From positions 152,740 to 216,739 of the forward strand of contig JAGOVG010000001.1 in assembly GCA_018060845.1 (NCBI GenBank): 64,000 bases of DNA, given 5' to 3'. This DNA is from Candidatus Woesebacteria bacterium (lineage in GTDB: Bacteria > Patescibacteriota > Microgenomatia > UBA1400 > UBA12108). Position 1 is the first letter of the stretch, and every line of letters starts with the position of its first letter. The notes under the pieces were generated by a model. The model was not told where the DNA came from and did no database searches. It worked only from the letters and a program-made list of their open reading frames with translations. The position numbers were made by a program, and so were the translations under genes. Positions 265 through 57,581 of the stretch are shown in pieces.

Positions 265-3135
265 TCAAAACCCTGGTAATTTGAGTATATCAGCAGCAAT
301 GAGGCGAAGGAGTGAGACAGAGAAGATGACTAGAAGTAGTCCGGCTATTCCGGCTGAGAAAAGGTCGCGACCGGACTGTATGGCTTTTGCATCACCAGAG
401 CTTGTCATGAGACGGAAGACGCCAGTTAGCATAACAGAGAGTGAGATGGCACCTGAGATACCTATAAGGAACTGCAGGAGCGCAGTAACAAATGGCTGGT
501 AAGTGTAGGGGAGACAGCCAAGCGCTGTTGCAAGACTACCCTCACCACAGGTGATGGGTCGGAAAGCAGCTAGACCAGTGCCTGGAGTCCCGGTGGTAGG
601 AGTAGTGGGGGAGCTAGCGGGATTTGTGCTCGGCGAGGCTGCTGGAGATCTAGTTTTGAGATATTCATGAACAACAAGCGCTGTTGGGAACACGCCCGGT
701 CGTTGACCGTAGGGTTTTGGAGGGATACAGGGTGTAAAGTCACCACAGTACAACAAATACATACTTTGATGCGTCCCGTCGACCATGTTCATGGCATATG
801 GATCATCTTCGCCCTGGAACTTTCTAGGACAGCCACCATAAGGGATGGTCCCACCAGGAAAGCCGATTTGGCAGTTGCTGTTACCACCACCATTAAAGTT
901 GCTGATTGCGGTTATTAGCTCTGGAGTTGTATCTATTGTGTGACGCAAGAGCCCGTTGGCCGCTGATCTAACTGTCGCCTCGAAGCCGCCCTGTTCACCG
1001 ACTGGGCCACCGTTGGCCGCAGAGCATTTTTCGGGGTTTCCTGTCGCAGTAAAGCAGGTTGTTGCTTCTTCAAAATGATGACCTGCTAGGACTTCGCAGG
1101 GGACACCCGTTTCTTCGGATATTTTGGCGTAGGCCTCTTCGAGTTTAGGATTAAGGATCCCACCCTCAAACATAGCTGAGTTTTGAATAATACTAGTTAC
1201 ATTACTTGGCGCAGTCTTCCAATCAGAGTCAGCGAGGATAGCTTCGAATTTGTCGGGTAGACACTGGCCAGTGGTACTGGTCCCAGGAGCACCCACAGTC
1301 CTGTCGCAGCCTATTCTAGTGCCGAGCGCATACTCTTCGACAGAGGTATCTAATTGACTAGAGAACATTGGATCTGCACAGGTATAGTACCCAAAGCGAC
1401 GTCTAGCGTCGGCAGGGTTCATGGATTTGCCAGCATATAAGAGCTCTGCTTCATCATCGACCGTACTACTTAAGTCTTCGTTAAAATCCTGGACACTTTC
1501 GAGATTTGCTAGGGTGTCCCTAGTATCGTAGTAACCTTTTTGGAGTTCGCTGATTGACTGACCCATCGCTTCTGGAACAGTGTAGAGGTGATATTTAACC
1601 TGCTCAACTTCGTCGATTTTGTCACCGCCACCCCAGCCAGTAAATGCTAATTGGAGGAACCATGAAAGATTGAGTTCGGGGTAGGCTCCGCCCTTATCTT
1701 TGGTAAGAGTGGGTTGGAGCTTGTAGTTAGGACACTCGCCGTTTGGCCCTAGCTTCATGTCATCTTCGAGGTAGTCGATCCACTGAGTAAAATATTTCCA
1801 GCTAGACCAAGGGATATATTTGAGACAACCATCCTTGAGTTCGCCGTAGAGCTTTTCGTGGATAAAACTGGGAATCCCAAACTCACTACTAACACTGGCA
1901 AAGCGAGCGAGAGGATTGACCGCCACAATGTTTTTGTAAATCCGCATAGCGTCACTAAGTGGATAGGTCATAAAGAGCTGGTCTAGGGCTGCATTAAATG
2001 ATTGTGAGATAGAGGTGTCGTAGAATAAGCCGCGCCGTATACCTACCAACATTTCATCTGGTACCCAACACTTGTCGGGATTTTTGGGACAACATACATT
2101 CCAGACACAAATAGTAGGCCTGATGTACCCCTGACGAAAAGAGGGGGGATAGAGTGGGGCAGACATTAGGTTAATAAACCATTCGTCTGGCTGCACTTTA
2201 CCGGCTTCTTTGTTGATCACATTACAGATCGCTTGTTGTGTTTCGCCCAGTCCTTCGAGGAGTGCGTAGTTGCCAGGATTAATATACATATCATCTAGCA
2301 TCTCAAGCATTCCAAAAGTTGGGGCAGCCACCGCGTCTGGGAGCTCATCGGAGATCTCGAGGAGGGTCTTGGTACCTACAGTTGGAGTGTCGGGATCTAG
2401 GTCGTGATCAATGCCGACTTGGTAGCCCCAGTCTACCCATCCTAGTGGCCACTCGCCGGTCTGTGCGAGAGTTGATTTGGTTTGCTTGGCGCGTTTGACG
2501 ACTATCACTTTGCGCAGAGCGACATCACAAAAACTAGAGTTGAGATATTGCGATCCCCAAGAGATATCATTACTTGTTCCTACATTAGTAAACGCAAGTG
2601 CTTCGCTTTGCAGTTTTGGGTAGGTTGGCTTTTCAGCTGAGAAATCGGTGCCTTTGACAGTACGGCTAATACTGGGTCTTTTTTTGTAACTACATTTACC
2701 CTTGGTGACCCCACCCAGATCAGGGTTGGCTTTGGCAGTACAGCTATCGTTTGGATCAGATGTCGCATCTTTGACATATTCGCCACTGTCGCGGTTGCAG
2801 AGACCTACTGTTCCACCCTCACACCCATCGACTAATTCTTCTGTTTGGTTGTCGACTGCACAGACATAATCGCGCTCATCACCACCTGGACAGAGCATGA
2901 GATTTTCGTATTCGCGACTACGATCACGGTTTTCGTATATTTTTAAAAAAGGAGCTCGGATGTATTTGTAGAGCGGAAAAAAAATCTCAAAGTGATACTC
3001 TTCATCAGGATTGCCCTCGACTGAAAAGGGGGCAAACGGTTCTGTTGATTCGGCACGAGCTGGAGCAATGGATAATGAGGAGTGAGCAAGGAGTAGAGCT
3101 AAGAGCGAAGTTGTGATAAGGCGCAGCAATCTCAT
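265..3135 (-). CDS. Large secreted Cys-rich protein (956 aa) with a C-terminal VirB2/TrbC-like pilin domain; putative adhesin-pilin fusion
   Basis: N-terminal signal peptide (MRLLRLITTSLLALLLAHSSLSIAPARA). About 850 aa of Cys-rich extracellular sequence. A Pro/Thr linker (PSTNPASSPTTPTTGTPGTG). The C-terminal 110 aa (ITCGEGSLATALGCLPY...TSSGDAKAIQSGRDLFSAGIAGLLLVIFSV) match the two-TM pilin core of the downstream paralogs. Confidence 0.7.
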   Translation of the reverse strand: MRLLRLITTSLLALLLAHSSLSIAPARAESTEPFAPFSVEGNPDEEYHFEIFFPLYKYIRAPFLKIYENRDRSREYENLMLCPGGDERDYVCAVDNQTEELVDGCEGGTVGLCNRDSGEYVKDATSDPNDSCTAKANPDLGGVTKGKCSYKKRPSISRTVKGTDFSAEKPTYPKLQSEALAFTNVGTSNDISWGSQYLNSSFCDVALRKVIVVKRAKQTKSTLAQTGEWPLGWVDWGYQVGIDHDLDPDTPTVGTKTLLEISDELPDAVAAPTFGMLEMLDDMYINPGNYALLEGLGETQQAICNVINKEAGKVQPDEWFINLMSAPLYPPSFRQGYIRPTICVWNVCCPKNPDKCWVPDEMLVGIRRGLFYDTSISQSFNAALDQLFMTYPLSDAMRIYKNIVAVNPLARFASVSSEFGIPSFIHEKLYGELKDGCLKYIPWSSWKYFTQWIDYLEDDMKLGPNGECPNYKLQPTLTKDKGGAYPELNLSWFLQLAFTGWGGGDKIDEVEQVKYHLYTVPEAMGQSISELQKGYYDTRDTLANLESVQDFNEDLSSTVDDEAELLYAGKSMNPADARRRFGYYTCADPMFSSQLDTSVEEYALGTRIGCDRTVGAPGTSTTGQCLPDKFEAILADSDWKTAPSNVTSIIQNSAMFEGGILNPKLEEAYAKISEETGVPCEVLAGHHFEEATTCFTATGNPEKCSAANGGPVGEQGGFEATVRSAANGLLRHTIDTTPELITAISNFNGGGNSNCQIGFPGGTIPYGGCPRKFQGEDDPYAMNMVDGTHQSMYLLYCGDFTPCIPPKPYGQRPGVFPTALVVHEYLKTRSPAASPSTNPASSPTTPTTGTPGTGLAAFRPITCGEGSLATALGCLPYTYQPFVTALLQFLIGISGAISLSVMLTGVFRLMTSSGDAKAIQSGRDLFSAGIAGLLLVIFSVSLLRLIAADILKLPGF

Positions 3136-3137
3136 GA

Positions 3138-3419
3138 TCAGAAGCCAAAGTTGAATTGAGTAACTGGTGCACCAGTGAGATTTTCGATTAAGAGTAAGAT
3201 CAGCCAGGAGACAATGGCAAGGACCAGGCCACCAACCGCATAGCCAACAGTTTGTTTGCCACCCTGCAACCCCTTAGGGTCTCCACCACTGGTTAAGATC
3301 TTAAAACCACCAACTAAGATCATGATAAAAGCTACCATGCCAATTAGTGGGATCATGGCGGATAGAACGTTGCCAAAGTAATCTGGTAGTTGGTCGAGGC
3401 GTGCGGCGTCTGAGTCCAT
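3138..3419 (-). CDS. Pilin-like small membrane protein (VirB2/TrbC-like, two TM)
   Basis: 93 aa. TM1 (LIGMVAFIMILVGGFKILTSGGDPKG), polar loop, TM2 (VGGLVLAIVSWLILLLIENL). It sits 2 nt upstream of the 956-aa gene, so the two are probably an operon. Confidence 0.6.
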   Translation of the reverse strand: MDSDAARLDQLPDYFGNVLSAMIPLIGMVAFIMILVGGFKILTSGGDPKGLQGGKQTVGYAVGGLVLAIVSWLILLLIENLTGAPVTQFNFGF

Positions 3420-3439
3420 GTCTGTAATTATAGTACAAA

Positions 3440-3470
3440 AACCCCGCTTACGCGGGGTTTATTGCAATGT
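3440..3470 (-). terminator. Rho-independent terminator (the hairpin is bidirectional) after the pilin gene 3486..3833
   Basis: Plus strand reads aaaaaCCCCGCttacGCGGGGtttatt. On the minus strand the stem CCCCGC/GCGGGG is followed by TTTTT. Confidence 0.6.
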
Positions 3471-3485
3471 TTGTAACAAAAAGTC

Positions 3486-3833
3486 TTAGTAAGCAGTTGG
3501 AGGCGTAATGTTGTCGTTGAGGATGCTGATACCAAAGAAGTATTGGATGATCAACATGACCGCCCAAGCAGAGGCTACGACTGCGAGACCAACTAGAGCT
3601 GCAGTGATGCGATCACGAGCTTCTTGGGTTTTGCCTTTGTCACCACCTGATGTAATCCATTGGATGCCACCCCAGATTAGATACATGAAGACGAGGAGAG
3701 CAGAAACGAGTAGTGCTCCCTGGACTGCACCCTTGATGAGAGTACCAATATTGGTGATTGCGACGTTGTCTGGCTTGCCAATTGAGAGGTCTGGAGCTGC
3801 TGGAGCTGCTAAGACTTTGGAAATTTCGAACAT
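3486..3833 (-). CDS. Pilin-like protein (VirB2/TrbC-like), paralog 1 of the array
   Basis: Conserved core YLIWGGIQWITSGGDKGKTQEARDRITAALVGLAVVASAWAV. Start moved to MFEISK because a strong RBS, AAAGGAGAAcatATG, sits just upstream. It has its own terminator. Confidence 0.7.
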   Translation of the reverse strand: MFEISKVLAAPAAPDLSIGKPDNVAITNIGTLIKGAVQGALLVSALLVFMYLIWGGIQWITSGGDKGKTQEARDRITAALVGLAVVASAWAVMLIIQYFFGISILNDNITPPTAY

Positions 3834-3891
3834 ATGTTCTCCTTTTATTACTTTATGATCTAAGTGTATCAATTATAGCAGGATTAGCAAG

Positions 3892-4266
3892 TTATTTGGT
3901 AATGCCAATCCCAAAGAAGTAGTCGACTAGTAAGTAGACGGCCCAAGCCGAGGCTACGATAGCTAGGCCAACTATAGCCTGGGTAATTTTGTTTCTAGCT
4001 TCTTCCAACTTTCCTTTGTCACCACCGGCCGTGATCCAGTTGATACCTCCGTAGACTAGGTACATAAAAGTGGCGAGCCCAGCTACTAGAATGACGGCCG
4101 AGAAGCTGCGGGAGACAAAAGTGCCAAGATCTTCGTTGATTGCCACGCGAGATTTGACTTGGTCATCCACATTGATGGCAAAGCTACCACCGGCGGCGAG
4201 TGCTACGGGCGTACTAGTTAAAAGTAGAAAGGTAAAAGTTGAAAGTCGGGTGAGTATTTTTTTCAT
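3892..4266 (-). CDS. Pilin-like protein (VirB2/TrbC-like), paralog 2
   Basis: Signal-peptide-like N-terminus, then YLVYGGINWITAGGDKGKLEEARNKITQAIVGLAIVASAWAV. Confidence 0.7.
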   Translation of the reverse strand: MKKILTRLSTFTFLLLTSTPVALAAGGSFAINVDDQVKSRVAINEDLGTFVSRSFSAVILVAGLATFMYLVYGGINWITAGGDKGKLEEARNKITQAIVGLAIVASAWAVYLLVDYFFGIGITK

Positions 4267-4304
4267 ATGTGGTCATTCCCGCCAATGCGGGACTTCGCTT
4301 ACGC

Positions 4305-4661
4305 TCAGCCTGCAGTGGGCCAGATAATGTTTAAGAGATCGACTCCGAGCGCTGATTCGATAAATTTGATTATGACGTAGCTTGCCGCGAGAACTGCAAG
4401 TCCAACTAAACCCTGAGTAATTTTGGCTCGACTCTCGTCAAGTTTTCCTTTGTCACCACCAGCCATAATCCAGTTGAGTCCACCCCAGAGGAAGTAAAGT
4501 AGAAAGGCGAGACCGCCTACGATAATGATGGTTTGCCAGAGCGTGGCCATGGTAATAGCAAATTGTTGAGGAGCACTATCAGGAGAGTCGCCCCCTGGCA
4601 CGGCTGTATTAGTTATCGCTGCGTGTACTTGAGTGACAAGTTGAAAGTTTGTAAAGTTCAT
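4305..4661 (-). CDS. Pilin-like protein, paralog 3
   Basis: FLWGGLNWIMAGGDKGKLDESRAKITQGLVGLAVLAASYVI. Variable N- and C-terminal tails. Confidence 0.7.
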   Translation of the reverse strand: MNFTNFQLVTQVHAAITNTAVPGGDSPDSAPQQFAITMATLWQTIIIVGGLAFLLYFLWGGLNWIMAGGDKGKLDESRAKITQGLVGLAVLAASYVIIKFIESALGVDLLNIIWPTAG

Positions 4662-4665
4662 AAAA

Positions 4666-5028
4666 TTAATTGAAGGTGATCCCCTGAATAATACTACCTG
4701 GTTCGAGGATGTTTAGACCTAGGGCAGAGCCCACGATCCAGACAATGGAGTAGGAGAGGACGATAATGATCAAACCTATGGCGCCACCCGTCATCATGCC
4801 CTTGGCTTTGTCGATCTTACCTTTGTCACCACCGGCCGTGATCCAGTTGAGGCCGCCAAGGAGGAAATAGAGGACAAAAGCAATGCCAGCAACTACGGTT
4901 AGCACAACTAGAGTATTGCTGATTAGTTTTTCAAAGGCACTAGTACTGCCCTCGATGCCACTACCAGGTTGGTATCCACCAGGAGTAGTAATCTGACTAA
5001 AGCTAGTGTCTGCCAAGATTTTTGACAT
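4666..5028 (-). CDS. Pilin-like protein, paralog 4
   Basis: FLLGGLNWITAGGDKGKIDKAKGMMTGGAIGLIIIVLSYSIV. Confidence 0.7.
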   Translation of the reverse strand: MSKILADTSFSQITTPGGYQPGSGIEGSTSAFEKLISNTLVVLTVVAGIAFVLYFLLGGLNWITAGGDKGKIDKAKGMMTGGAIGLIIIVLSYSIVWIVGSALGLNILEPGSIIQGITFN

Positions 5029-5031
5029 AAA

Positions 5032-5367
5032 TTAAAAACTCCCTGGTCCAGTAATGGTAGGAGATAAGATAGCTCCTGCATCGCCAAATAGGACAAAGGA
5101 GACAATGCCGGTAATCGCTGCTGCGCCTACCATGATGATTAAACCGAGGAGAGACATGTTGATTGAGTACATAGCAGCCTGGATCTTTTTCTCGTCCCCT
5201 CCGGCCGTGACGTAAGTAAAGCCAGAGATCATGAGATTAAAGAATGCGTACAATCCCGCTGCAACAAAAATAACGGTCACAATATTAGTGATAAAACTTG
5301 GTAACCCAGTGTTGACATCACCGTAGTTGGTTACTGGATTGTCGATGTTACCAAAGACGCTTGCCAT
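5032..5367 (-). CDS. Pilin-like protein, paralog 5 (diverged)
   Basis: Same two-TM topology. The motif is degenerated to TYVTAGGDEKKIQAAMYSINMSLLGLIIMVG. Confidence 0.6.
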   Translation of the reverse strand: MASVFGNIDNPVTNYGDVNTGLPSFITNIVTVIFVAAGLYAFFNLMISGFTYVTAGGDEKKIQAAMYSINMSLLGLIIMVGAAAITGIVSFVLFGDAGAILSPTITGPGSF

Positions 5368-5371
5368 AGAT

Positions 5372-5719
5372 TTATAGAATCTCTAGTCCGGTGACGATCT
5401 GAATAATCTGAATTATCCAGTACGAACCGAAGACTACTAATAGGCCCATTATAGCAAAAGTAATAGTTTTTTTGCCCTCTTCCATCTTGTGACTATCGCT
5501 GGCGCCACTTATCACATTAAATCCGCCGAGTACAAACATAAAAAAGAGCACTAGCCCTGCTGCGACATAGACGTTCGGGAGGATGGCGTTGATTAAGTCG
5601 CTCGCACTACCGTAGGTCGAGTCTGCGCTACTACCCTGGAAAATAAGCTTGTCACCTAAGTTAAATCCTGCCATGCCATTTATTATACCCTTTGGAGTAG
5701 AATATGGCACATGGAACAA
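5372..5719 (-). CDS. Pilin-like protein, paralog 6 (diverged)
   Basis: Two TM around the motif ISGASDSHKMEEGKKTITFAIMGLLVVFGSYWII. The real start may be the internal MAGFNLG at 5674, because 5711-5719 overlaps the divergent sigma gene. Confidence 0.55.
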   Translation of the reverse strand: MFHVPYSTPKGIINGMAGFNLGDKLIFQGSSADSTYGSASDLINAILPNVYVAAGLVLFFMFVLGGFNVISGASDSHKMEEGKKTITFAIMGLLVVFGSYWIIQIIQIVTGLEIL

Positions 5720-6250
5720 GTGATAAAGGAGATATTAAAAGGAAAAAAGGGTGCAGCAACTGTATTTTACCGAGAGTACTCACCTAAACTAAGGCGATTT
5801 TTGGTGGCTAAACTCCCGAGCGAAGCAGATGCGGAGGAGCTACTCCAAGACATATTTTTGTCTGTGTTTGACTCTCTGCCGATCTACCGGGGGGAGTGTA
5901 GCGTTATGTCATGGATTTACTCGATAGCACGACATGAGGTGGCCGACTTTTATCGCAAGCGCTACGTTCGAGAGCTGGTAGAGAAGACCAATCCTTTGTT
6001 TGAAGAGTTGATGGAGACGGTTGAGACCCCAGAAAAGGTTTTGGATAAAACTAAAAAGCGTGCTCAGTTTTTTGCGGTGTACAAAGGTCTTAATCAATCA
6101 TACCAAGATATACTGTCATACCGCTACGAATTATCTTTGTCAGTAAAAGAGATAGCGGCAAAAATGAAACTCACATTTAAGGCAACAGAGTCATTACTTT
6201 ATCGGGCGAGGACAGCTTTTGCCCTAGCTTACGAAACATATGCAGAGTGA
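5711..6250 (+). CDS. ECF-type RNA polymerase sigma factor (sigma-70 regions 2 and 4)
   Basis: Region 2-like DIFLSVFDSLPIYRGECSVMSWIYSIARHEVADFYRKR. Region 4-like LSYRYELSLSVKEIAAKMKLTFKATESLLYRARTAF. Divergent from the pilin array. Confidence 0.8.
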   Translation: MEQVIKEILKGKKGAATVFYREYSPKLRRFLVAKLPSEADAEELLQDIFLSVFDSLPIYRGECSVMSWIYSIARHEVADFYRKRYVRELVEKTNPLFEELMETVETPEKVLDKTKKRAQFFAVYKGLNQSYQDILSYRYELSLSVKEIAAKMKLTFKATESLLYRARTAFALAYETYAE

Positions 6251-6535: not shown

Positions 6536-6843
6536 GAATATTGTTGCTTGGAGTGTGGGCGAGTTATGTATGGGGGACGACTCTTGCGGGACTGGCAATC
6601 CATCCGTACCAATCAATCCGACGTATAGTGTTGGGTAAGAAAATATTGTTGCCAGTTACACTTTCACCTCTGATAGGCCTGATTGTATTGTTTGTAGCCG
6701 GCCGGATGGGGAGCTATGTTTTTACTCTAGGTAATATTGGTAGGGAACTAACGGCGCTAGTTCTGGGATCGACTCTCATTGGACTATTGATGTGGCAAGG
6801 ACTACTACTTCTGTTGGTGCTGAGGTTTTGGCGGGCGCGTTAG
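6503..6843 (+). CDS. Multi-TM membrane protein co-transcribed with the ECF sigma
   Basis: Three to four predicted TM helices (GILLLGVWASYVWGTTLAGL, LLPVTLSPLIGLIVLFVAG, LTALVLGSTLIGLLMWQGLLLLLVL). ATG at 6503. The ORF also stays open upstream through the CGGACAACC repeat. Confidence 0.4.
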
Positions 6844-7202
6844 AGGTGATCGACAATGGCGGTTTCCCCAAAGTATCCCAACTTAAGGAGGAGCTTGTCT
6901 CGTGTTAGAAAATATTGACACTTTCCTTGGGTTGCGGAGTGAAGTTGAAGATTATCTTCTAGGTCGTTGGTTGGGCCAACTAGTGCTCGCTGAAGAACGA
7001 CATTGGACAAGTTAACTATGCCCATGTTTTTTAATAATAAATCTAATTCTAGGGTAGGTATATTTGTTTTTGTTGCATAACATAAGATGTGACAAGAGAG
7101 GGGGGAGATGTAGAGTTTGTGTTCTGCAAGTTCTGCTAGTTTACTAGTATCACGCTTAAATAGGTCGATTAGGATGTTGGTATCAAGATATATGTTTGCC
7201 AT
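6840..7202 (-). CDS. vapC: PIN-domain toxin (VapC-like ribonuclease)
   Basis: MANIYLDTNILIDLF... is a classic PIN N-terminus. Start set at MANIY. Confidence 0.75.
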   Translation of the reverse strand: MANIYLDTNILIDLFKRDTSKLAELAEHKLYISPLSCHILCYATKTNIPTLELDLLLKNMGIVNLSNVVLQRALVGPTNDLEDNLQLHSATQGKCQYFLTRDKLLLKLGYFGETAIVDHL

Positions 7203-7455
7203 ACTTTTTTTGGATATATTCGTCGTAGTTCTTCTTTCTTTGTGCATCAGAAATTCTGGTAGTTTTGAGGTTTTTGGTGAGTTCTAGATATTTTTTGGCG
7301 TCAAAAGGCTGAGCAGGTTTATTTTCTGGCGGGGAGATAACACCAAGCACTTGAGAGCGGTGAATTAACTGGACAGAATGACCTGCCATGAGGGCATCAA
7401 CTAGTTTAGTAGTGTTGGTTCTTAGTTGAGTAGTGGTAATGTAGTTCATATACAC
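7183..7455 (-). CDS. Phd/YefM-type antitoxin
   Basis: ITTTQLRTNTTKLVDALMAGHSVQLI is a Phd/YefM-like N-terminus. It overlaps the PIN gene by about 20 nt. Confidence 0.6.
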   Translation of the reverse strand: MYMNYITTTQLRTNTTKLVDALMAGHSVQLIHRSQVLGVISPPENKPAQPFDAKKYLELTKNLKTTRISDAQRKKNYDEYIQKKYGKHIS

Positions 7456-7791: not shown

Positions 7792-8460
7792 ATGCAGAAT
7801 ATGGACTACAGCGTATATCAGGGGAGGCAGGTAGTACTCGTGGATGAGAATGACAATGAGTTGGGGGTTGAGGATATTCTAGTAGCTCATCAGGGAGTAG
7901 GGAAGAAGCATAGAGCTTTGTCGGTTATTTTGTATAGACGAGTTGGTGACAGAACAGAAATCCTCATGCAGAAGCGGTCGCAGGCGAAGCCAGTTTTTAA
8001 AGGTCTATGGAGCAATACCTGCTGTACTAATTTGCGTCCTGGTGATACTTATATCGAGCGTGCAGTGTCGAGGCTAAAAGAAGAGATGGGGATAGAGATA
8101 AAACCAGAAGACTTGAGAATTCTTTATCGCTTTAGCTACGAAGCACCTGATCTAACCAATCCAGTCCATTCGGCCCATTCGACTAGCTCAGGGCAGGCAA
8201 GCTCAGGATCTACGAGCTGGTGTGAGAACGAAGTGGATACAGTAATAGTAGGGATGTGGGATCCTTCGGTTCATTCGACTAGCTCAGGACAGGCAAGCTC
8301 AGGACAGGCTGGAATGAAGTTAAACCCAGATGAAGCTGAGGATGCAAAATGGATGGAGTATGGAGAGATGAAAGAGGATATGGATAAGAACCCAGATATT
8401 TATTCACCCTGGCATAAATTAATTATTAACGATCCACGATTTGTGGAGGAGGTAGTATGA
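7792..8460 (+). CDS. idi: Isopentenyl-diphosphate delta-isomerase, type 1 (Nudix fold), with an in-frame low-complexity insertion
   Basis: ILVAHQGVGKKHRALSVILYRR, LMQKRSQAKPVFKGLWSNTCC and CENEV match the type 1 family. The STSSGQASSG segment is duplicated. Confidence 0.75.
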   Translation: MQNMDYSVYQGRQVVLVDENDNELGVEDILVAHQGVGKKHRALSVILYRRVGDRTEILMQKRSQAKPVFKGLWSNTCCTNLRPGDTYIERAVSRLKEEMGIEIKPEDLRILYRFSYEAPDLTNPVHSAHSTSSGQASSGSTSWCENEVDTVIVGMWDPSVHSTSSGQASSGQAGMKLNPDEAEDAKWMEYGEMKEDMDKNPDIYSPWHKLIINDPRFVEEVV

Positions 8461-9916: not shown

Positions 9917-10575
9917 ATACAAAAACGATACCAACACATATTGCGGTGATAATGGATGGAAACAGAAGGTGGGCTAAGGCAAAGGGACTACCTGCTATTG
10001 CCGGTCACGCATATGCAGTCGAGAAGACGGTCGAAGCACTGATAGAGCGAGCAGGAGAGACGGGAGTTAAACATCTTACGTTATGGGCATTTAGTACAGA
10101 GAATTGGGGGAGAGCAGAAGATGAGGTGACGGGACTGATGAATCTGTTTAGAAAAGCGATAGAGACCAAGGCGGGCCGGTTTATCGCAAAAGGGGCAAGA
10201 CTTAGATTGATCGGAGACATGAGCCGATTTAGCGAAGATATCCAGGTAGGAATGAAGCGAGTAATAGCTGAGAGCGAGAAAAATGAAAAGATCACAGTAA
10301 CATTTGCACTAAACTATGGCGGGAGAGATGAGATTAAGAGGGCGGTGCAAAAGGGTGGAGTGGATTTTGAAAACCAACTAGATACTGTAGGGATGCCTGA
10401 CCCTGACCTGATTATTAGAACAGGTGGAGATTACCGTCTATCTGGATTTTTGATGTGGCAGGCGGCGTATAGTGAACTGTATTTTACAGAGACCCTGTTC
10501 CCTGATTTTACGCCAGAGAAGTTTGATGAGGCGGTAGAGGAGTATCAGAGTAGACAGAGACGGTTTGGGAAGTAG
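9910..10575 (+). CDS. uppS: Undecaprenyl-diphosphate synthase (cis-prenyltransferase)
   Basis: HIAVIMDGNRRWAKAKGL and LWAFSTENWGR match the family. Confidence 0.85.
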   Translation: MLDTKTIPTHIAVIMDGNRRWAKAKGLPAIAGHAYAVEKTVEALIERAGETGVKHLTLWAFSTENWGRAEDEVTGLMNLFRKAIETKAGRFIAKGARLRLIGDMSRFSEDIQVGMKRVIAESEKNEKITVTFALNYGGRDEIKRAVQKGGVDFENQLDTVGMPDPDLIIRTGGDYRLSGFLMWQAAYSELYFTETLFPDFTPEKFDEAVEEYQSRQRRFGK

Positions 10576-10597
10576 TATTTTAGCTCGCCAGGTATAC

Positions 10598-10658
10598 GAT
10601 TTTGCAGTCCTCACAGCTATCTGACGTATCAGAGGAGACGCTCCGGGCTGAAAATCAT
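10598..10658. repeat. Intergenic repeat family A, copy 1
   Basis: gattttgcagtcctcacagctatctgacgtatcagaggagacgctccgggctgaaaatcat. Near-identical to 13144-13211 apart from loop length. Confidence 0.6.
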
Positions 10659-10716
10659 TCACCTGGTTCGCTATGGTCAGTAATATTTGAACTTGTGCAA
10701 ATAGTTCGTAGAAAAT

Positions 10717-11028
10717 TTACCCGACGATGTCGATCTTGAAGATAATCTGGAGGAGCTGGGCGATCCAGAAGGCTAGAAAGATAACGGCAAACCCAAATAG
10801 CGCACTAGTAATAGTTTTTTTACCTTTTTCTTGAGCTTCTTTGTCTGCCGCACCAGCGAGCATAGTAAAGCCACCTGAGACGAGCATGCCAAAGAGGATA
10901 ATCCCTGCGAGTGTTAGTAGGGTGGGGAGGATGGAGCTAATGATACTACCCACGTTACTAGTATCTACCTGGCCACCACCGAGGCCGATGGCATTCTCGT
11001 AGGCGTCGTAGTCTGCAAAATCTGCCAT
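10717..11028 (-). CDS. Pilin-like protein (VirB2/TrbC-like), second locus
   Basis: Two TM around GGFTMLAGAADKEAQEKGKKTITSALFGFAVIFLAFWI. Confidence 0.6.
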   Translation of the reverse strand: MADFADYDAYENAIGLGGGQVDTSNVGSIISSILPTLLTLAGIILFGMLVSGGFTMLAGAADKEAQEKGKKTITSALFGFAVIFLAFWIAQLLQIIFKIDIVG

Positions 11029-11036
11029 ATAATCCT

Positions 11037-11453
11037 TTAATTAAATCCTGGTAATTGAATGATATCACCTGCAATGATGCGCAGTAGTGTTACAGAGAAG
11101 ATGATAAACAGAAGTCCGGTTACGGCACTGGTAAAGAGCTCTTTACCTTTTTTGACTGCTTCAGCATTGTCGCCACCAGTCATGATCTGGACTGTTGCAA
11201 TGAGCATAATAACCAAAGAGATGGCTCCTGCCGTACCAGCAAGAAACGTAAGAAGGGAGACAGTGAAACCTTTAGTATCTACGCTTAAGCATCCTAGCGC
11301 CGTGTCGATTGCTGTATCACCGCAGCTGCCATTGGGATCGATCGCCTTGACTTGATTGGTCGAAAGTAGAAAGTAGAGGGTAGAGAGGAAGGGAGCAACT
11401 AGTCTTTGTGATAGGATGGATATATGTTTTCTGTCTGGAAAAAGCTTTTTCAT
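11037..11453 (-). CDS. Secreted Cys-motif protein with a C-terminal pilin-like domain; short homolog of the 956-aa protein's C-terminus
   Basis: NGSCGDTAIDTALGCLSV...ISLVIMLIATVQIMTGGDNAEAVKKGKELFTSAVTGLLFIIFSVTLLRIIAGDIIQLPGFN. Compare ITCGEGSLATALGCLPY...LKLPGF in the 956-aa protein. Confidence 0.6.
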   Translation of the reverse strand: MKKLFPDRKHISILSQRLVAPFLSTLYFLLSTNQVKAIDPNGSCGDTAIDTALGCLSVDTKGFTVSLLTFLAGTAGAISLVIMLIATVQIMTGGDNAEAVKKGKELFTSAVTGLLFIIFSVTLLRIIAGDIIQLPGFN

Positions 11454-13124
11454 AGCATAGTAATTGTACTGCTTCTTATCCTGACAATTGTATCACACCA
11501 GACAGCGCACGCTGAGACTCTGGAGGAGATAGAGAAGCAGCTAGCGGACCTTTCTAATCAGCTCCAGCTATCACAAGCAGCAACCACTCCACTCGAAGCC
11601 GAGGTCTCCAAGCTGCTTAAGCAGATTGGGACTATCCAGAGTCAGATCAAAGACTACGAGAGTAAAATCAAGGATTTAAGTCTAGATATTGATGAGAGGG
11701 AAGTAAAAATTAAGACCCAATATGTAGTATTGGGAGCAAAGGTTAGGGACTACTACAAAAAATCCAGGTTTTATTCCCCTCTACTGACACTACTATCCTC
11801 ACAAAGTGCGGGCGAGCTAACACGCGAACTTACGTATGCTGAGGCGACAGCGGATGAAGATAAAGAGATGATTGTCTCGATTACCAAAGAGATTATTGCT
11901 CTAGAGGATGATAAGACAAAGCTTGAATCTGACAAAGTCAGATTAGCTTCCTTACAAAAGAAGGTTGATGGTCAAAAAGCATTTTTTGAGAAAGAAATCG
12001 CGGGTGCTAAGAAGTGGCAACAAGAGCTCTCTGGCAAAATAGCGACTTTGACAGCCAAACAACAATCAATCCTTTCGGAGAAATCGGGGACATTTCAGAC
12101 TACGGTTGGAGACGTGCCTCTCGCAGATGACAAAGCATCAAGACCAGACTACAACCCAGGATTTTCACCAGCGTTTGCCGCATTTTCATTTGGAGCGCCG
12201 CACTTTAAAGGCATGAGTCAATACGGGGCATATGGCCGGGCCAAACAAGGACAGAGTTACGAGACTATATTGAAAGCTTATTATGGCAACGGTATCGAGA
12301 TTAGAGACCATAACCCAGACGCGCAGATAGTGGTCGAGGGATATGGGAGCTTTAGTTTGGAAGAATATGTAAAAAGAATCTATGAGATGCCGGGTTCATG
12401 GGGAGATGAGGGTGGGATGGAGGCACTTAAAGCGCAGGCGATAGCTGCACGCAGCTACGCACTAGCACGCGGTGGGACTATATGTGCTACTGAGGCATGT
12501 CAGGTATTTAAACCGAGTCCGAAAGGTGGGAGGTGGGAAGAAGCCGTAAATGCGACTAGAGGTAAGGTGGTATATGCAAACGGCAGTCCTTTTTCGACTT
12601 GGTATGCATCTACATCAGGAGGATACCAACTCAGCTACTCAGCTAACGGGCACTCAACTCCAGGATTTTGGGATACGCCATCAGGACAAGCTGGCTGGAC
12701 TGGCCAAGCATATGAAAAAGTGGCTGGCTCACCCTGGTTCTACAAAGCTTGGTATAAAACAAGATCAGGTGATTCGTGCGATAGATCACATCCATGGCTC
12801 AACTCCGAAGAAATGGCCGACATCTTAAACTCTTGGGTAGTTTTATTTAATGGAGGAGGGGATGCGGGGCGAGTGACCCCAGAGTCATCTTGTTGGGGAG
12901 GTAGCCCGTATAACCGAGCGGAACTCAGAGACATAGGTGGGTATAGTAGTGTCAGTGGAGTTAGCGTGAGCTACGGCAATAATGGTGTAACCGCGAACAT
13001 TACTTTTCAGACCAACAAAGGCAGCACTACTATCGCGGCAGCAGACTTTAAGAAGGCCTTTAATTTGCGAGCACCTGGTCGAATATCGATAAAGTCAAAC
13101 CTGTTTAATATTGAGAAAAAGTAG
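11424..13124 (+). CDS. SpoIID/LytB-domain protein with signal peptide and N-terminal coiled coil
   Basis: Signal peptide ending AHA. Coiled-coil-like 40-230. GMSQYGAYGRAKQGQSYETILKAYY and AQAIAARSYA match the SpoIID family. Confidence 0.7.
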   Translation: MFSVWKKLFHSIVIVLLLILTIVSHQTAHAETLEEIEKQLADLSNQLQLSQAATTPLEAEVSKLLKQIGTIQSQIKDYESKIKDLSLDIDEREVKIKTQYVVLGAKVRDYYKKSRFYSPLLTLLSSQSAGELTRELTYAEATADEDKEMIVSITKEIIALEDDKTKLESDKVRLASLQKKVDGQKAFFEKEIAGAKKWQQELSGKIATLTAKQQSILSEKSGTFQTTVGDVPLADDKASRPDYNPGFSPAFAAFSFGAPHFKGMSQYGAYGRAKQGQSYETILKAYYGNGIEIRDHNPDAQIVVEGYGSFSLEEYVKRIYEMPGSWGDEGGMEALKAQAIAARSYALARGGTICATEACQVFKPSPKGGRWEEAVNATRGKVVYANGSPFSTWYASTSGGYQLSYSANGHSTPGFWDTPSGQAGWTGQAYEKVAGSPWFYKAWYKTRSGDSCDRSHPWLNSEEMADILNSWVVLFNGGGDAGRVTPESSCWGGSPYNRAELRDIGGYSSVSGVSVSYGNNGVTANITFQTNKGSTTIAAADFKKAFNLRAPGRISIKSNLFNIEKK

Positions 13125-21805: not shown

Positions 21806-21842
21806 GTTTGCTTGTAAACCACTCTGGGTGTTTTATAATCTG
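21806..21842. repeat. Leader repeat, copy 3 (partial), abutting the 3' end of tRNA-Ser
   Basis: ttgtaaaccactctgggtgttttataatctgcgg aligns with the 5' half of copies 1 and 2. Confidence 0.45.
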
Positions 21843-21928
21843 CGGAGACGGTGAGATTTGAACTCACGCGTGTCTTGCGACACAAGAGGTTAGCAACCTC
21901 TCGCAATGGGCCACTATGCGACGTCTCC
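21843..21928 (-). tRNA. tRNA-Ser (anticodon GCU), class II with a long variable arm
   Basis: Minus strand reads GGAGACG-tc-gca..tgc-g-AGAGG-ttGCTaa-CCTCT, a long variable arm, then GTGAG-TTCAAAT-CTCAC-CGTCTCC-g. CCA is not encoded. Confidence 0.8.
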
Positions 21929-21969
21929 TTTGATATTCTCTGAATGATTGAAATTATAGCATTGAACTG

Positions 21970-22054
21970 CGGAAGGGAAGGGATTCGAACCCTTGGTGAG
22001 TTTCCCCACGGAGGTTTAGTAAACCTCTGCACTAGGCCACTATGCGACCCCTCC
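21970..22054 (-). tRNA. Class II tRNA (Ser-like) whose anticodon loop reads ttACTaa, an apparent ACU anticodon, which is non-canonical
   Basis: Minus strand reads GGAGGGG-tc-gca..tgc-a-GAGGT-ttACTaa-ACCTC, a 16-nt variable arm, then AAGGG-TTCGAAT-CCCTT-CCCTTCC-g. Confidence 0.6.
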
Positions 22055-49037: not shown

Positions 49038-49249
49038 GAAAAAATGATGCTGAGCTAGAGACAGCAGAACCAGAAGAAGTAAGCGAAAAAGAAGAAAAAA
49101 AAGCAAAGCGAAAAGAGGGTGCAGACAAGAGGCGTAATCAAAAGAAGAAAGACAAAATCGCTCGGTGGAGTGGTTTTATCCTACTATTGGTTGTGATTAT
49201 GGTTGGGTTTTTGATGTGGATTGCTGGAGAGATAAATACAGGTTATTAG
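49034..49249 (+). CDS. Small Lys-rich protein with a C-terminal TM
   Basis: EKEEKKAKRKEGADKRRNQKKKDK, then WSGFILLLVVIMVGFLMWIAG. Confidence 0.35.
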   Translation: MRKNDAELETAEPEEVSEKEEKKAKRKEGADKRRNQKKKDKIARWSGFILLLVVIMVGFLMWIAGEINTGY

Positions 49250-51459: not shown

Positions 51460-51514
51460 CTTAGTTGGTATTGTATCCCCCCTTGTAGCTGAGAGTCTAG
51501 GTATAACTTGTGTG

Positions 51515-52636
51515 TTAGCGGAGAGTTTTTAGGGTTGGCCAAAGCCAGGAAACATTGTTGTCATAGCCTAGAGCCCAGAGTGCAATCCCACCTAGACCAG
51601 AGGATTTGACTAGCTCTAGCTTGAGTCTAATCGAGGTTTCGTTCTCGAAATAAATCTGAGTGGGTGATCCCGACTCGGTACTGACACCATATGGGGTTAG
51701 TGAGTTGCGATCCCAGATCAGCTCTAATGTCCTGTCTTGCAACATAGACTCTATTCGTTCAAGGCTCGCTGTTACCCCTCTGCTCTCGGTTGGTGCGTAT
51801 TTACTGTCATCAACTGTGTCCCATAGAGGTATGCCTAGGAGTAGTTTGGAAGAGGGCACGCTACTCGCTAATTCACCTAGATTCTTGATAATAGAGTGCT
51901 CAAACTCACCAGAAAAATCTCGAAGAGGTGAGTTAGGACCAGCGCGCTCACTTTTGGGCATGGTGTAGTCATATGTCATGACTACAAAATAATCTACATA
52001 ACTCTCGAGCTTGGGTAGATCCCAGAGCCTTGGACGTGCGGCGGCTGAAGCATAGATGCTAACTGACAATAGCTTATCCATTTGATCAAGTTGTATATGA
52101 AGTTCTTTAATAAAGAGGGTGAAGTTGTCTCTAATAGTGGCTGTGGTAGCGCCGACTGGCTCTAGGTCAATGTTTACTCCGACGGCGTTTGCTTCTTTGA
52201 CAGTATTCACAATATTTTTAACTGCAGTTTGGCGTGAGGTGGGGGACGCGATCATGTTAACTAGTGCGTCTTCATCTTCTTGCATGAATGTTAGGATCAA
52301 GTTATTGTAAGGGGGAGCACTAAGTAGTCTTTTGTAGTTGGTATATCCTGGATCTTCTTCGCGAGCATTTACTTTTGTGTATATTTCGCCGTTCCCACGC
52401 AGATGGATTGCAAAGTATGCAAAGTGAGTAATAGTATCTAGCGACTCAGCTGATAATTTTTTCATGTTCCAGTACGGGGCAAACCCAAGAATGACGTAAT
52501 CCTTTTTGCCAGTAGGATTGTTGTCTAGGTCTATATTTGCTCCCAGTGGCGAGATGGGGATTTGGGGTGGGAGCAGGATATAGGTTGCAATCGAGCAGGT
52601 GACGACCAGAGCTACTAGAAGGAATAACTTCTTCAT
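51515..52636 (-). CDS. Secreted GH18-like (chitinase-fold) protein, possibly non-catalytic
   Basis: Signal peptide. ILGFAPYWN. GVNIDLEPV in place of DGxDxDWE, so the catalytic Glu context is altered. Confidence 0.5.
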   Translation of the reverse strand: MKKLFLLVALVVTCSIATYILLPPQIPISPLGANIDLDNNPTGKKDYVILGFAPYWNMKKLSAESLDTITHFAYFAIHLRGNGEIYTKVNAREEDPGYTNYKRLLSAPPYNNLILTFMQEDEDALVNMIASPTSRQTAVKNIVNTVKEANAVGVNIDLEPVGATTATIRDNFTLFIKELHIQLDQMDKLLSVSIYASAAARPRLWDLPKLESYVDYFVVMTYDYTMPKSERAGPNSPLRDFSGEFEHSIIKNLGELASSVPSSKLLLGIPLWDTVDDSKYAPTESRGVTASLERIESMLQDRTLELIWDRNSLTPYGVSTESGSPTQIYFENETSIRLKLELVKSSGLGGIALWALGYDNNVSWLWPTLKTLR

Positions 52637-57395: not shown

Positions 57396-57581
57396 GATTT
57401 TGATCTAGAAGCGCTAGATTGACCAACAACTCTCGAAGTTCTAGAGTGAATGTAGGTTTAACAATTTAACGAGATATTGGATAAGGAAGTAGGGTGAAAT
57501 ACCCTCACTGTGCCGCAACGGTTAAAGTCCGGAACTTGCCAATATTCTCGCCTTATTACGCATCCTCCGCGCGAGAGGATG

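What the first reader, a model, noticed from the sequence alone, without database searches (positions are those of the whole stretch)
10717..11453. Second mini-locus repeating the theme: a pilin paralog plus a short Cys-motif protein ending in a pilin domain
The pilin-like gene 10717..11028 is followed by a 138-aa secreted protein. Its CG(D/E)-x(6-8)-ALGCL motif and C-terminal pilin domain (..GGDNAEAVKKGKELFTSAVTGLLFIIFSVTLLRIIAGDIIQLPGFN) are clearly homologous to the C-terminus of the 956-aa protein, including the terminal LPGF(N). The module CxxC-knot plus pilin domain is therefore reused, with a tiny or a giant N-terminal passenger. This supports a modular family of passenger-pilin fusions.
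Basis: seen in the sequence. Interest (0 to 1): 0.65.

Follow-up and report, generated by a model that had tools for sequence, protein, structure and literature searches.

The report
Passenger-carrying VirB2-like pilin module in CPR
The small gene pair is real. It is one copy of a conserved cassette in ultra-small (CPR) bacteria, in which a conjugation-type pilin domain with a cysteine loop and a terminal PGF motif carries anything from no cargo to an 850-residue extracellular cargo, and this arrangement does not appear in the literature I could search.

Summary
The 138-aa protein (11037-11453, minus strand) and the last 95 residues of the 956-aa protein (265-3135, minus strand) are 48% identical without gaps (E 1e-31). 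Both Cys, the TALGC motif and the terminal LPGF align.

The shared module ('class B') has four parts:
- a Cys-x10-Cys beta-hairpin;
- two long hydrophobic helices joined by a GGD..KKGK turn;
- a C-terminus of (L/I)PGF plus 0-3 residues;
- a two-helix core homologous to the window's eight plain PF18895 T4SS pilins ('class A'; hhalign 97%, E 1e-10).

A profile search of 1.84 billion representative proteins gave 5,942 hits at E<=1e-10. In the 132 single-module hits among the best 150, the module is C-terminal. It follows 8-835 Cys-rich residues that have no Pfam domain.

The mini-locus is a conserved cassette: a divergent SpoIID-like wall enzyme (30-nt head-to-head overlap), then class B, then class A. 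The giant protein closes a seven-pilin array at the head of a T4SS cluster.

The most likely mechanism is inferred, not shown: class-B proteins are minor or tip subunits of the CPR T4SS pilus, or anchors, that display passengers. This is a new variant of a known kind.

The parts
11037..11453 (-). Class-B pilin-domain protein, 138 aa, the passenger-less member of the family. It has a leader, a Cys loop, a two-helix pilin core and an LPGFN end.
   Evidence: ORF. BLASTP to the giant's C-terminus gives E 1e-31. There are 161 homologues, all from Microgenomates or unnamed CPR. PF18895 scores E 0.001, below the gathering score. The AF2 model has pLDDT 83.
11343..11453 (-). Predicted long leader or signal peptide (residues 1-37, MKKLFPDRKH...NQVKA|I).
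   Evidence: Read directly from the sequence. The N-terminal MKKxFPxRKHxSILT is conserved in orthologues. Cleavage is inferred, not tested.
11289..11324 (-). Cys44-x10-Cys55 loop (CGDTAIDTALGC). It is predicted to form a beta-hairpin and probably a disulfide on the outer face of the membrane.
   Evidence: Both Cys are at least 90% conserved in 144 representatives. AF2 places strands at residues 48-51 and 54-57. Total Cys count is even in 114 of 132 family members.
11061..11276 (-). Two-helix pilin core: helix 60-92, GGDN turn followed by KKGK, helix 97-131.
   Evidence: AF2 model. hhalign against the plain PF18895 pilins aligns columns 27-93 at 97% probability, E 1e-10.
11040..11054 (-). C-terminal LPGFN tail, specific to class B.
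   Evidence: P135, G136 and F137 are invariant in orthologues. PG[FLI] is followed by only 0-3 residues in 108 of 116 representatives.
10717..11028 (-). Class-A plain T4SS pilin, 103 aa. It lies 8 nt downstream of the class-B gene, has an AGGA ribosome-binding site, and has neither Cys nor PGF.
   Evidence: PF18895 E 1.3e-9. NCBIfam NF045849 (Mbov_0395 pilin-like) E 3.9e-7, below its cutoff. Sequence read. A class-A gene directly follows 58 of 82 class-B genes elsewhere.
11424..13124 (+). Divergent SpoIID-like secreted peptidoglycan enzyme, 566 aa, with a coiled-coil N-terminal half. It is the third member of the conserved cassette.
   Evidence: Pfam SpoIID E 1.4e-13. A divergent SpoIID-like gene lies directly upstream of 37 of 50 small or medium class-B genes (Pfam confirmation in L022, L057 and L081).
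11424..11453 (.). 30-nt head-to-head overlap of the class-B and SpoIID-like coding regions (ATG...CAT). The His10 codon of each gene is the reverse complement of the other gene's start codon.
   Evidence: Sequence read. The same ATG...CAT arrangement occurs in 14 further loci (13 distinct sequences) and in an independent JGI gene call.
265..3135 (-). Giant class-B protein, 956 aa: signal peptide, a Cys-rich passenger of about 830 aa with no known domain, a Pro/Thr/Ser linker, and a class-B module (residues about 854-956, window 268-576).
   Evidence: No Pfam family other than C-terminal PF18895 was found in 36 of 43 orthologues.
3138..5719 (-). Array of seven class-A plain pilin paralogues immediately upstream of the giant. 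Each has a 1:1 orthologue in other genomes.
   Evidence: PF18895 hits. Local HMM scan. Orthologue identities of 47-99% in nine genomes, except 31% for one paralogue in the most distant genome, whose locus is cut within the array.
5711..6250 (+). ECF-type sigma factor gene, divergent from the pilin array. It is a candidate regulator.
   Evidence: NCBIfam sigma70-ECF E 6e-21. The same position is occupied in L001 and L083.

Best explanation
The window comes from a Candidatus Woesebacteria (Microgenomates, CPR/Patescibacteria) genome.

SHOWN:
- The 138-aa protein and the C-terminus of the 956-aa protein carry the same 'class-B' module.
- The module is a disulfide-type Cys loop, a VirB2/TrbC-type (PF18895) two-helix pilin core, and a (L/I)PGF C-terminus.
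- It is a distinct, very widespread subfamily of T4SS pilin domains.
- It sits at the C-terminus of Cys-rich proteins with signal-peptide-like N-termini, whose N-terminal parts range from nothing to about 850 residues.
- The class-B gene is nearly always co-transcribed with a plain 'class-A' pilin gene and is sometimes fused to it.
- The small and medium versions sit head-to-head with a SpoIID-like peptidoglycan enzyme gene.
- The giant version closes a seven-pilin array at the head of a T4SS gene cluster.

INFERRED mechanism:
1. The precursor is exported by Sec.
2. The passenger and the Cys loop stay outside the membrane.
3. The hairpin inserts with its lysine-rich turn in the cytoplasm and its PGF end outside, which is the VirB2 topology.
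4. The class-B hairpin pairs with its class-A partner.
5. The T4SS machinery incorporates it as a low-copy (tip or initiating) subunit of the pilus, or of the envelope-spanning stalk.
6. The passenger is thereby displayed towards the host cell, while the SpoIID-like enzyme opens the cell wall locally.

On this reading the 138-aa protein is the bare, highly conserved form of this subunit.
For: - Homology of the two window proteins: E 1e-31.
- Conservation of Cys, TALGC and PGF in 65 orthologues and in 144 representatives.
- Pilin core: hhalign 97%, E 1e-10 against the plain PF18895 paralogues. PF18895 is hit by 130 of 144 and 36 of 43 family members.
- Predicted structure: a beta-hairpin plus two helices of 33-35 residues, in both the small protein (pLDDT 83) and the giant.
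- Family size and modularity: 5,942 representative clusters at E<=1e-10. The module is C-terminal in 132 of the 144 best representatives analysed, with N-terminal lengths of 8-835 residues.
- Extracellular character: even Cys count in 114 of 132, 3.9% Cys in passengers, and signal-peptide-like N-termini in 97 of 127.
- Partnering with class A: 58 of 82 class-B genes are directly followed by a class-A gene and 8 are preceded by one. Natural B+A and B+A+A fusions preserve an N-out/C-out topology.
- SpoIID-like partner: 37 of 50, with a conserved 30-nt overlap.
- T4SS context: genes downstream of the giant encode a PrgI/VirB3-like protein, a CHAP-domain protein and a 7-TM protein. A VirB4-like ATPase lies about 3.5 kb from a class-B/class-A group in L078.
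- Conservation pattern: the small class-B protein and every array paralogue have 1:1 orthologues, while the giant passenger evolves fastest.
- Literature: VirB2-like pilin arrays are known in Patescibacteria and essential in Southlakia epibionticum (PMC12102498, PMC10633639, PMC12857230).
Against: - No experimental or structural evidence shows that any PF18895 protein forms a pilus in Microgenomates.
- The 138-aa protein alone scores below the PF18895 gathering score (19.5 bits against 26.6).
- Foldseek finds only generic helical hairpins, with no VirB2 or TraA structure among the matches.
- A PDB sequence-profile search finds nothing.
- The mini-locus is separated from the array and T4SS cluster by about 5 kb of housekeeping genes.
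- No VirB4 lies within the sequence held for this genome.
- An 830-residue passenger on every subunit would be sterically incompatible with a packed pilus, so incorporation would have to be rare or terminal. That is an assumption.
- The passenger's function is unknown: no Pfam, NCBIfam, PDB or fold match.
Confidence: 0.55

Rival explanations
1. Membrane anchor only. The class-B module descends from a pilin but now serves merely as a two-helix C-terminal anchor that tethers secreted Cys-rich proteins to the CPR cell membrane. The downstream class-A protein may act as a four-helix partner. The module is never extracted into a filament.
For: - The module always sits at the C-terminus of otherwise unrelated extracellular passengers, as other anchoring signals do.
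- Helices of 33-35 hydrophobic residues fit a membrane hairpin.
- The mini-locus is not inside the T4SS cluster.
- B+A fusions would give a stable 4-TM protein.
Against: - A simple anchor would not need near-invariant extracellular elements (Cys loop, TALGC, PGF at the very end) across thousands of different passengers.
- It would not need an obligatory class-A partner gene.
- The giant is embedded in the pilin array and T4SS cluster.
- The core retains the pilin-family GGD..K turn.
Confidence: 0.3
2. The small class-B protein is the true major, processed pilin. Like VirB2 and TrbC it has a long cleaved leader, and its conserved PGF(+0-3) end is a C-terminal processing or cyclisation site. The plain class-A proteins would then be the accessory subunits.
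For: - A long conserved leader and extreme conservation of the mature part (the aligned mature parts differ at few positions; whole-protein identity is 53-84%).
- A conserved end with 0-3 trailing residues.
- From memory: TrbC of RP4 loses four C-terminal residues during cyclisation by TraF, and VirB2 is cyclised head to tail.
Against: - The same module carries passengers of up to 835 residues, which cannot be head-to-tail cyclised major subunits.
- No good Shine-Dalgarno sequence precedes the 138-aa gene, whereas the downstream class-A gene has AGGA. This is a weak argument.
- No TraF-like peptidase was looked for or seen.
Confidence: 0.12
3. The resemblance is only compositional (two hydrophobic segments), and the 'family' is an artefact.
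For: Both proteins are hydrophobic, and weak hits to unrelated membrane families appear in Pfam scans.
Against: - E 1e-31 with composition-based statistics, 48% identity and no gaps.
- Invariant Cys, TALGC and PGF in non-hydrophobic positions.
- Conserved synteny.
Confidence: 0.01

Closest known systems
VirB2/TrbC-type T4SS pilins, specifically Pfam PF18895 T4SS_pilin and the VirB2-like pilin arrays of Patescibacteria (Wang et al. 2023, PMC10633639; Quinonero-Coronel et al. 2025, PMC12102498)
   Same: Both have a two-helix hydrophobic hairpin with a short basic GGD..K turn. They are homologous by profile comparison. Both occur in tandem arrays next to T4SS genes in CPR genomes, and the seven-gene array in the window is exactly what those papers describe.
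   Different: Class B adds a Cys-x(9-12)-Cys beta-hairpin before helix 1 and an invariant (L/I)PGF at the extreme C-terminus. It also carries N-terminal passengers of up to about 850 residues. None of this is mentioned in the papers I could search. Those papers interpret arrays as variable paralogues (about 25% identity). Here each paralogue has a conserved 1:1 orthologue.
VirB5/TraC-type pilus-tip adhesins of Gram-negative T4SSs (from memory and PMC12857230)
   Same: The proposed role is the same: a low-copy subunit at the pilus tip that initiates assembly and contacts the target cell. No PrgB-type adhesin was found in Patescibacteria (PMC12102498), and the review says VirB5 is not found in Gram-positive T4SSs, with Patescibacteria noted as the one recent exception for VirB2/VirB5 (PMC12857230). 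A missing adhesin function is therefore plausible.
   Different: There is no sequence or fold similarity, and VirB5 is not a pilin-domain fusion. This is an analogy only.
Minor pilins with large globular domains in type IV pili and type II secretion (for example GspK, TcpB/CofB; from memory)
   Same: The design principle is the same: a pilin-type assembly handle fused to a larger functional domain and present in low copy at the filament tip. They are also encoded beside several small pilin paralogues.
   Different: The fold and the machinery are unrelated. Type IV pilins have one N-terminal helix, a prepilin-peptidase G|FxxxE site and a C-terminal globular domain. Here the handle is C-terminal, has two helices, and no prepilin-peptidase motif is present.
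Mbov_0395-family pilin-like conjugal transfer protein of Mycoplasma ICEs (NCBIfam NF045849)
   Same: The window's class-A pilins (103 aa and 93 aa) match it weakly (E 4e-7 and 2e-6, below its cutoff). This shows that VirB2-like hairpins also occur in other wall-less or monoderm T4SSs.
   Different: Class-B proteins do not match it at all. It has no passenger, no Cys loop and no PGF.
C-terminal sorting signals (LPXTG/sortase, PGF-CTERM/archaeosortase, PEP-CTERM/exosortase; from memory)
   Same: Both are short conserved motifs (PGF here) close to a C-terminal hydrophobic segment on many unrelated secreted proteins.
   Different: In those signals the motif precedes one TM helix and a basic tail. 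Here PGF follows the second of two helices and is itself the C-terminus, so the architecture does not fit.

Membership tests
PF18895 T4SS_pilin (VirB2/TrbC-like) | The single sequence reaches the Pfam gathering score | tested here: not met
   The 138-aa protein scores 19.5 bits against a cutoff of 26.6 (E 0.001). The 956-aa protein has no hit. The neighbouring 103-aa protein scores 38.4 bits, which meets the cutoff.
PF18895 T4SS_pilin (VirB2/TrbC-like) | Family-level or profile homology to bona fide members | tested here: met
   hhalign of the class-B profile against the window's plain pilins gives 97% probability and E 1e-10 over 67 columns. PF18895 is hit by 130 of 144 representatives (best E 2e-67) and by 36 of 43 giant orthologues.
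PF18895 T4SS_pilin (VirB2/TrbC-like) | Two hydrophobic helices joined by a short, positively charged turn | tested here: met
   AF2 places helices at 60-92 and 97-131, with a GGDN turn followed by KKGK. The giant has the same layout at residues 879-911 and 916-950.
PF18895 T4SS_pilin (VirB2/TrbC-like) | Structural match to solved conjugative pilins | tested here: inconclusive
PF18895 T4SS_pilin (VirB2/TrbC-like) | Encoded with T4SS machinery (VirB4, VirB3/PrgI, VirB6, and so on) | tested here: inconclusive
   Genes for a PrgI-like protein, a CHAP-domain protein and a 7-TM protein lie 0-10 kb beyond the giant. A VirB4-like ATPase lies near a class-B gene in L078. No VirB4 is present in the sequence held for this genome, and the mini-locus itself lies about 5 kb from the array.
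PF18895 T4SS_pilin (VirB2/TrbC-like) | Polymerises into an extracellular pilus | not testable with these tools
   This needs microscopy or proteomics.
Type IV pilus (T4P) pilins | Class III leader with a prepilin-peptidase site (G|F/M-x-x-x-E) followed by a single N-terminal hydrophobic helix | tested here: not met
   The sequence reading shows no such motif. The hydrophobic helices are C-terminal and paired.
PGF-CTERM / LPXTG-type sorting signals | A motif, then one TM helix, then a basic tail at the C-terminus | tested here: not met
   PGF is at the extreme C-terminus after helix 2, with 0-3 residues following it in 108 of 116 representatives.
VirB5-type tip adhesin | Sequence or fold similarity to VirB5/TraC | tested here: not met
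   No Pfam or NCBIfam hit for either class-B protein and no PDB fold hit. The resemblance is functional analogy only.

The most novel reading that the evidence does not exclude
The class-B module is a general 'pilus-display handle'. Thousands of different Cys-rich passengers are carried covalently on a VirB2-like subunit and presented at the tip of the T4SS pilus, the system shown to be essential in one Saccharibacterium. Assembly would be seeded together with the downstream class-A subunit and a dedicated SpoIID-like wall-cutting enzyme. On this reading class B is the missing adhesin or VirB5 equivalent of CPR T4SSs and a main determinant of host range in episymbiotic bacteria.
Probability: 0.3. 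Interest if true: 0.85.

Novelty: new variant of a known kind. Interest (0 to 1): 0.62.

Why it matters
The T4SS and its VirB2-like pilin array are essential for the epibiotic life of the one genetically tractable Patescibacterium. What the system does, and how it recognises a host, is unknown, and no PrgB-type adhesin has been found.

A very large and so far undescribed subfamily of pilin-domain proteins carries variable, fast-evolving, disulfide-rich extracellular passengers. It supplies concrete candidates for the host-contact components. It also gives a simple sequence signature for finding them in any CPR genome: C-x(9-12)-TALGC, then two helices, then PGF at the C-terminus.

The 1:1 orthology of every array paralogue argues for a multi-subunit structure rather than antigenic variation.

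The conserved SpoIID-like / class-B / class-A cassette links the system to cell-wall remodelling.

The work also exposes an annotation problem. NCBI calls the 138-aa gene as a 56-aa fragment because of the head-to-head overlap.

Tried and rejected
1. Function of the 830-residue passenger of the giant. All of these found nothing:
- Pfam on the window protein and on 43 orthologues, and NCBIfam.
- A PDB sequence-profile search.
- Foldseek against the PDB with a pLDDT-79 model. Only weak GH73 or lytic-transglycosylase-like hits appeared (7pj4, 4pia, 3bkh) at E>1.

I had thought residues about 670-760 (PCE...YNGGGNSNCQ) might be an SLT-like lysozyme domain. Nothing supports that, and I dropped it.

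3. Promoter and terminator scan of 10500-11800. The promoter-like count was within chance expectation. Four terminator-like sites were found against about one expected, none at the 3' end of the gene pair.

4. Compositional-similarity explanation. Rejected.

5. Sortase or PGF-CTERM-type signal. Rejected because the motif is in the wrong place.

6. Type IV pilus pilin. Rejected because there is no prepilin-peptidase motif.

7. Walker-A ORFs near class-B genes in 80 loci. Most were housekeeping proteins (ClpB, FtsH, RecG) or SpoIID-like. Only L078 gave a VirB4-like ATPase.

8. The third homologous-protein search, the metagenome scan and the viral scans were not used, because the answer did not depend on them.

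Full report
**1. What is at the coordinates**

ORF listing shows two adjacent minus-strand genes. The first is 11037-11453 (138 aa). After an 8-nt spacer containing AGGA, the second is 10717-11028 (103 aa).

The 103-aa protein is a clear member of Pfam PF18895 T4SS_pilin (38.4 bits, E 1.3e-9).

BLASTP of the 138-aa protein against the 956-aa protein (265-3135, minus strand) gives one ungapped segment. Residues 43-137 align to residues 862-956 with 48% identity and 74% positives, at E 1e-31 with composition-based statistics. The two cysteines, TALGC and the terminal LPGF all align.

The window belongs to a Candidatus Woesebacteria MAG. The 956-aa protein is identical to NCBI KBD69_00790, on a 226.7-kb contig.

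**2. Anatomy of the shared module ('class B')**

Orthologue alignments used 24 relatives of the small protein and 41 of the giant. They show an invariant or nearly invariant pattern:
- C-x(9-12)-TALGC(L/I)P, followed by two hydrophobic segments;
- a GGD-x-x-x-x-KKGK turn between the segments;
- a C-terminus of (L/I)PGF.

AlphaFold2 on the mature 138-aa protein, with a 60-sequence alignment, gives pLDDT 83. The predicted elements are:
- a beta-hairpin at residues 48-51 and 54-57, inside the Cys44..Cys55 loop;
- helix 60-92;
- a turn at 93-96;
- helix 97-131;
- a coil tail (QLPGFN).

The giant's C-terminus is predicted with the same layout.

Profile-profile comparison with the window's eight plain pilins aligns only the two-helix core (columns 27-93; 97% probability, E 1e-10). 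The Cys loop and the PGF tail are therefore class-B-specific additions to a VirB2/TrbC-type hairpin.

A six-frame HMM scan finds exactly two class-B modules and eight plain 'class-A' pilins in the 64 kb.

**3. How large and how modular the family is**

A profile of the module (A3) was searched against 1.84 billion representative proteins. It gave 14,769 hits at E<=1e-3, 5,942 at E<=1e-10 and 30 at E<=1e-30.

By my calibration from the listed scores, E 1e-10 corresponds to about 56 bits. Class-A cross-scores seen locally were at most 45 bits. Most of the 5,942 hits should therefore be class B, but I could inspect only the best 150.

Among the 144 new representatives:
- 132 have a single module, and it lies at the extreme C-terminus;
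- the region before the module is 8-835 residues long, with a median of 180;
- 97 of 127 have a signal-peptide-like N-terminus by a crude hydrophobicity rule;
- passengers contain 3.9% Cys;
- the total Cys count is even in 114 of 132, the classic signature of disulfide-bonded extracellular proteins;
- PG[FLI] is followed by only 0-3 residues in 108 of 116.

Pfam finds PF18895 in 130 of 144, and almost nothing in the passengers (fn3 in two).

Some orthologues of the small protein carry a 50-residue Cys-rich insert exactly between the leader and the Cys loop (P0061, P0097, P0120). That position therefore looks like the point where passengers are inserted.

**4. Genomic grammar**

In 80 loci from GTDB species representatives, the module occurs in Woese-, Levyi-, Roizman- and Gottesmanbacteria, in Paceibacteria, and in unnamed Patescibacteria. 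Many of the TPA MAGs are evidently mislabelled as Pseudomonadales or Gammaproteobacteria.

Of 82 class-B ORFs:
- 58 are followed directly by a class-A gene on the same strand;
- 8 (the giants) are preceded by the class-A array;
- most of the remaining 16 are cut by contig ends or are themselves B+A fusions.

Natural B+A fusions exist (P0104, P0225, P0237, and an ORF in L005), as do B+A+A fusions (P0208 and others). Their junctions read ...PGF-x-x-P-x-x-(A/V)YA-Q.... That resembles a signal-peptidase AxA site placed after an in-to-out helix. It fits a topology of N-out / turn-in / C-out for both hairpins.

A divergent SpoIID-like gene lies directly upstream of 37 of 50 small or medium class-B genes, and of none of the 17 large ones (Pfam confirmation).

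In the window the SpoIID-like gene (11424-13124, plus strand; SpoIID E 1.4e-13) overlaps the class-B gene head-to-head by 30 nt. The same ATG...CAT arrangement occurs in 14 further loci (13 distinct sequences). This explains the conserved His10 of both proteins.

The mini-locus is therefore one instance of a conserved three-gene cassette: SpoIID-like, then class B, then class A.

**5. Relation to the T4SS**

The contig beyond the window's left edge (L083) shows these genes downstream of the giant:
- a bitopic 186-aa protein;
- a 523-aa protein with seven TM-like segments;
- a 948-aa protein with a weak C-terminal CHAP match (E 7e-4);
- a PrgI/VirB3-like gene (weak precomputed Pfam hit).

These are typical components of the monoderm-type T4SS described for Patescibacteria (PMC12102498). 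In a Levyibacteriota locus a VirB4-like ATPase (P-loop_TraG, E 7e-30) lies about 3.5 kb from a class-B plus class-A group.

An ECF sigma factor gene is divergent from the array, and the same holds in other genomes. The order of the whole region is conserved in a 964-kb contig of a distant Microgenomate: SpoIID-like, class B, class A, UppS and isoprenoid genes, ECF sigma, pilin array. The giant (P0160) lies on the same contig.

**6. Conservation pattern**

Across nine genomes, the small class-B protein, its class-A partner and each of the seven array paralogues have 1:1 orthologues (mostly 60-98% identity). The giant is the fastest-evolving component, at 38-66% in all but the closest genome (92%). 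The 49% value for the 964-kb contig covers only 9% of the protein.

This argues for a multi-subunit structure with dedicated roles for each paralogue. It argues against simple antigenic variation, and it fits a passenger that faces a changing partner.

**7. Mechanism (inference)**

The following model fits every feature seen:
1. Sec exports the precursor.
2. The passenger and the Cys loop stay outside the membrane.
3. The hairpin sits in the membrane in VirB2 topology.
4. The hairpin pairs with the class-A partner.
5. It is incorporated in low copy at the tip or start of a T4SS pilus or stalk.
6. A SpoIID-like enzyme opens the wall locally.

None of these steps has been demonstrated.

The main rival is that the module is only a membrane anchor. 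Against that rival stand the near-invariant extracellular juxtamembrane elements, the obligatory class-A partner, and the giant's position inside the array.

**8. Comparison with what is known**

VirB2-like pilin arrays of 2-11 genes in Patescibacteria are published, as is their essentiality in Southlakia (PMC12102498, PMC10633639, PMC12857230).

Full-text searches found no description of a Cys-loop/PGF subfamily, of N-terminal passengers on VirB2-like domains, or of the SpoIID-linked cassette. The library is incomplete, so this is absence of evidence only.

I file the finding as a new variant of a known kind.

**9. Limits**

- There was no signal-peptide or TM predictor.
- No taxonomy is available for the representative hits.
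- Only the best 150 of thousands of hits were examined.
- Fold searches were restricted to Foldseek against the PDB.
- The passenger's function remains unknown.

Noticed in passing
window 11424-11453 (and L001, L003-L012, L016, L033, L036): The class-B gene and the divergent SpoIID-like gene overlap head-to-head by exactly 30 nt (ATG...CAT). The tenth codon (His, CAT) of each gene is the reverse complement of the other's start codon. The arrangement is conserved in 14 further loci. It implies overlapping 5' transcript ends and possibly mutually exclusive expression.
   Followed up: partly
L083 1929-2099 (= window about 11037-11207): The NCBI annotation of this genome calls the 138-aa gene only as a 56-aa fragment starting at Met83. 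This is presumably because of the overlap with the SpoIID-like gene. The family is therefore probably under-annotated in public genomes.
   Followed up: partly
window 3138-5719 and loci L017, L020, L023-L025, L028-L030: Each of the seven array pilins has a recognisable 1:1 orthologue with a conserved C-terminal signature (for example ...NISWPTAG, ...NITPPKAY, ...TQFKFGF) in other Microgenomates. Published accounts describe the arrays as highly variable paralogues.
   Followed up: partly
P0204 (820 aa), P0250, P0271 (representative-library proteins): These are 'polypilins'. Single polypeptides carry 6-8 tandem class-A-like hairpins without Cys or PGF (one search shows eight regular repeats in P0204).
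   Followed up: no
L083 12920-22871 (left of the window): Downstream of the giant lie a 186-aa bitopic protein, a 523-aa 7-TM protein, a 1328-aa protein with no TM segment or domain (opposite strand), a 948-aa protein with a weak CHAP match, and a PrgI-like gene. This is a probable T4SS cluster in which most components have no Pfam match.
   Followed up: partly
window 21842-21928 and 21969-22054: Two tandem tRNA-Ser genes are present. ARAGORN assigns one the anticodon ACT, which is unusual for bacteria (A34). Both pass the Rfam tRNA threshold.
   Followed up: no
window 57474-57545, 59460-61481, 61491-63380: An AdoCbl-II riboswitch overlaps the start of a 459-aa ORF that has no Pfam match. Two tandem ribonucleotide reductase large-subunit paralogues lie just downstream.
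   Followed up: no
window 49246-54867: Two class-A penicillin-binding proteins (737 and 744 aa) flank a GH18 chitinase-like gene on the minus strand.
   Followed up: no
window 7792-8460: The NUDIX/IPP-isomerase-like ORF contains a duplicated low-complexity insert (HSTSSGQASSG, twice). Compared with L001, the HMG-CoA reductase, synthase and thiolase genes of this region are absent here, and a PIN-domain and antitoxin-like pair (6840-7455) is present.
   Followed up: no
loci L005-L013, L034-L081 (record titles): Many TPA MAG records are titled 'uncultured Pseudomonadales' or 'Gammaproteobacteria'. One is titled 'Bathyarchaeia' (L076). They carry CPR-type class-B/class-A cassettes with up to 90% identity to the Woesebacteria window, so the organism labels are evidently wrong.
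   Followed up: no
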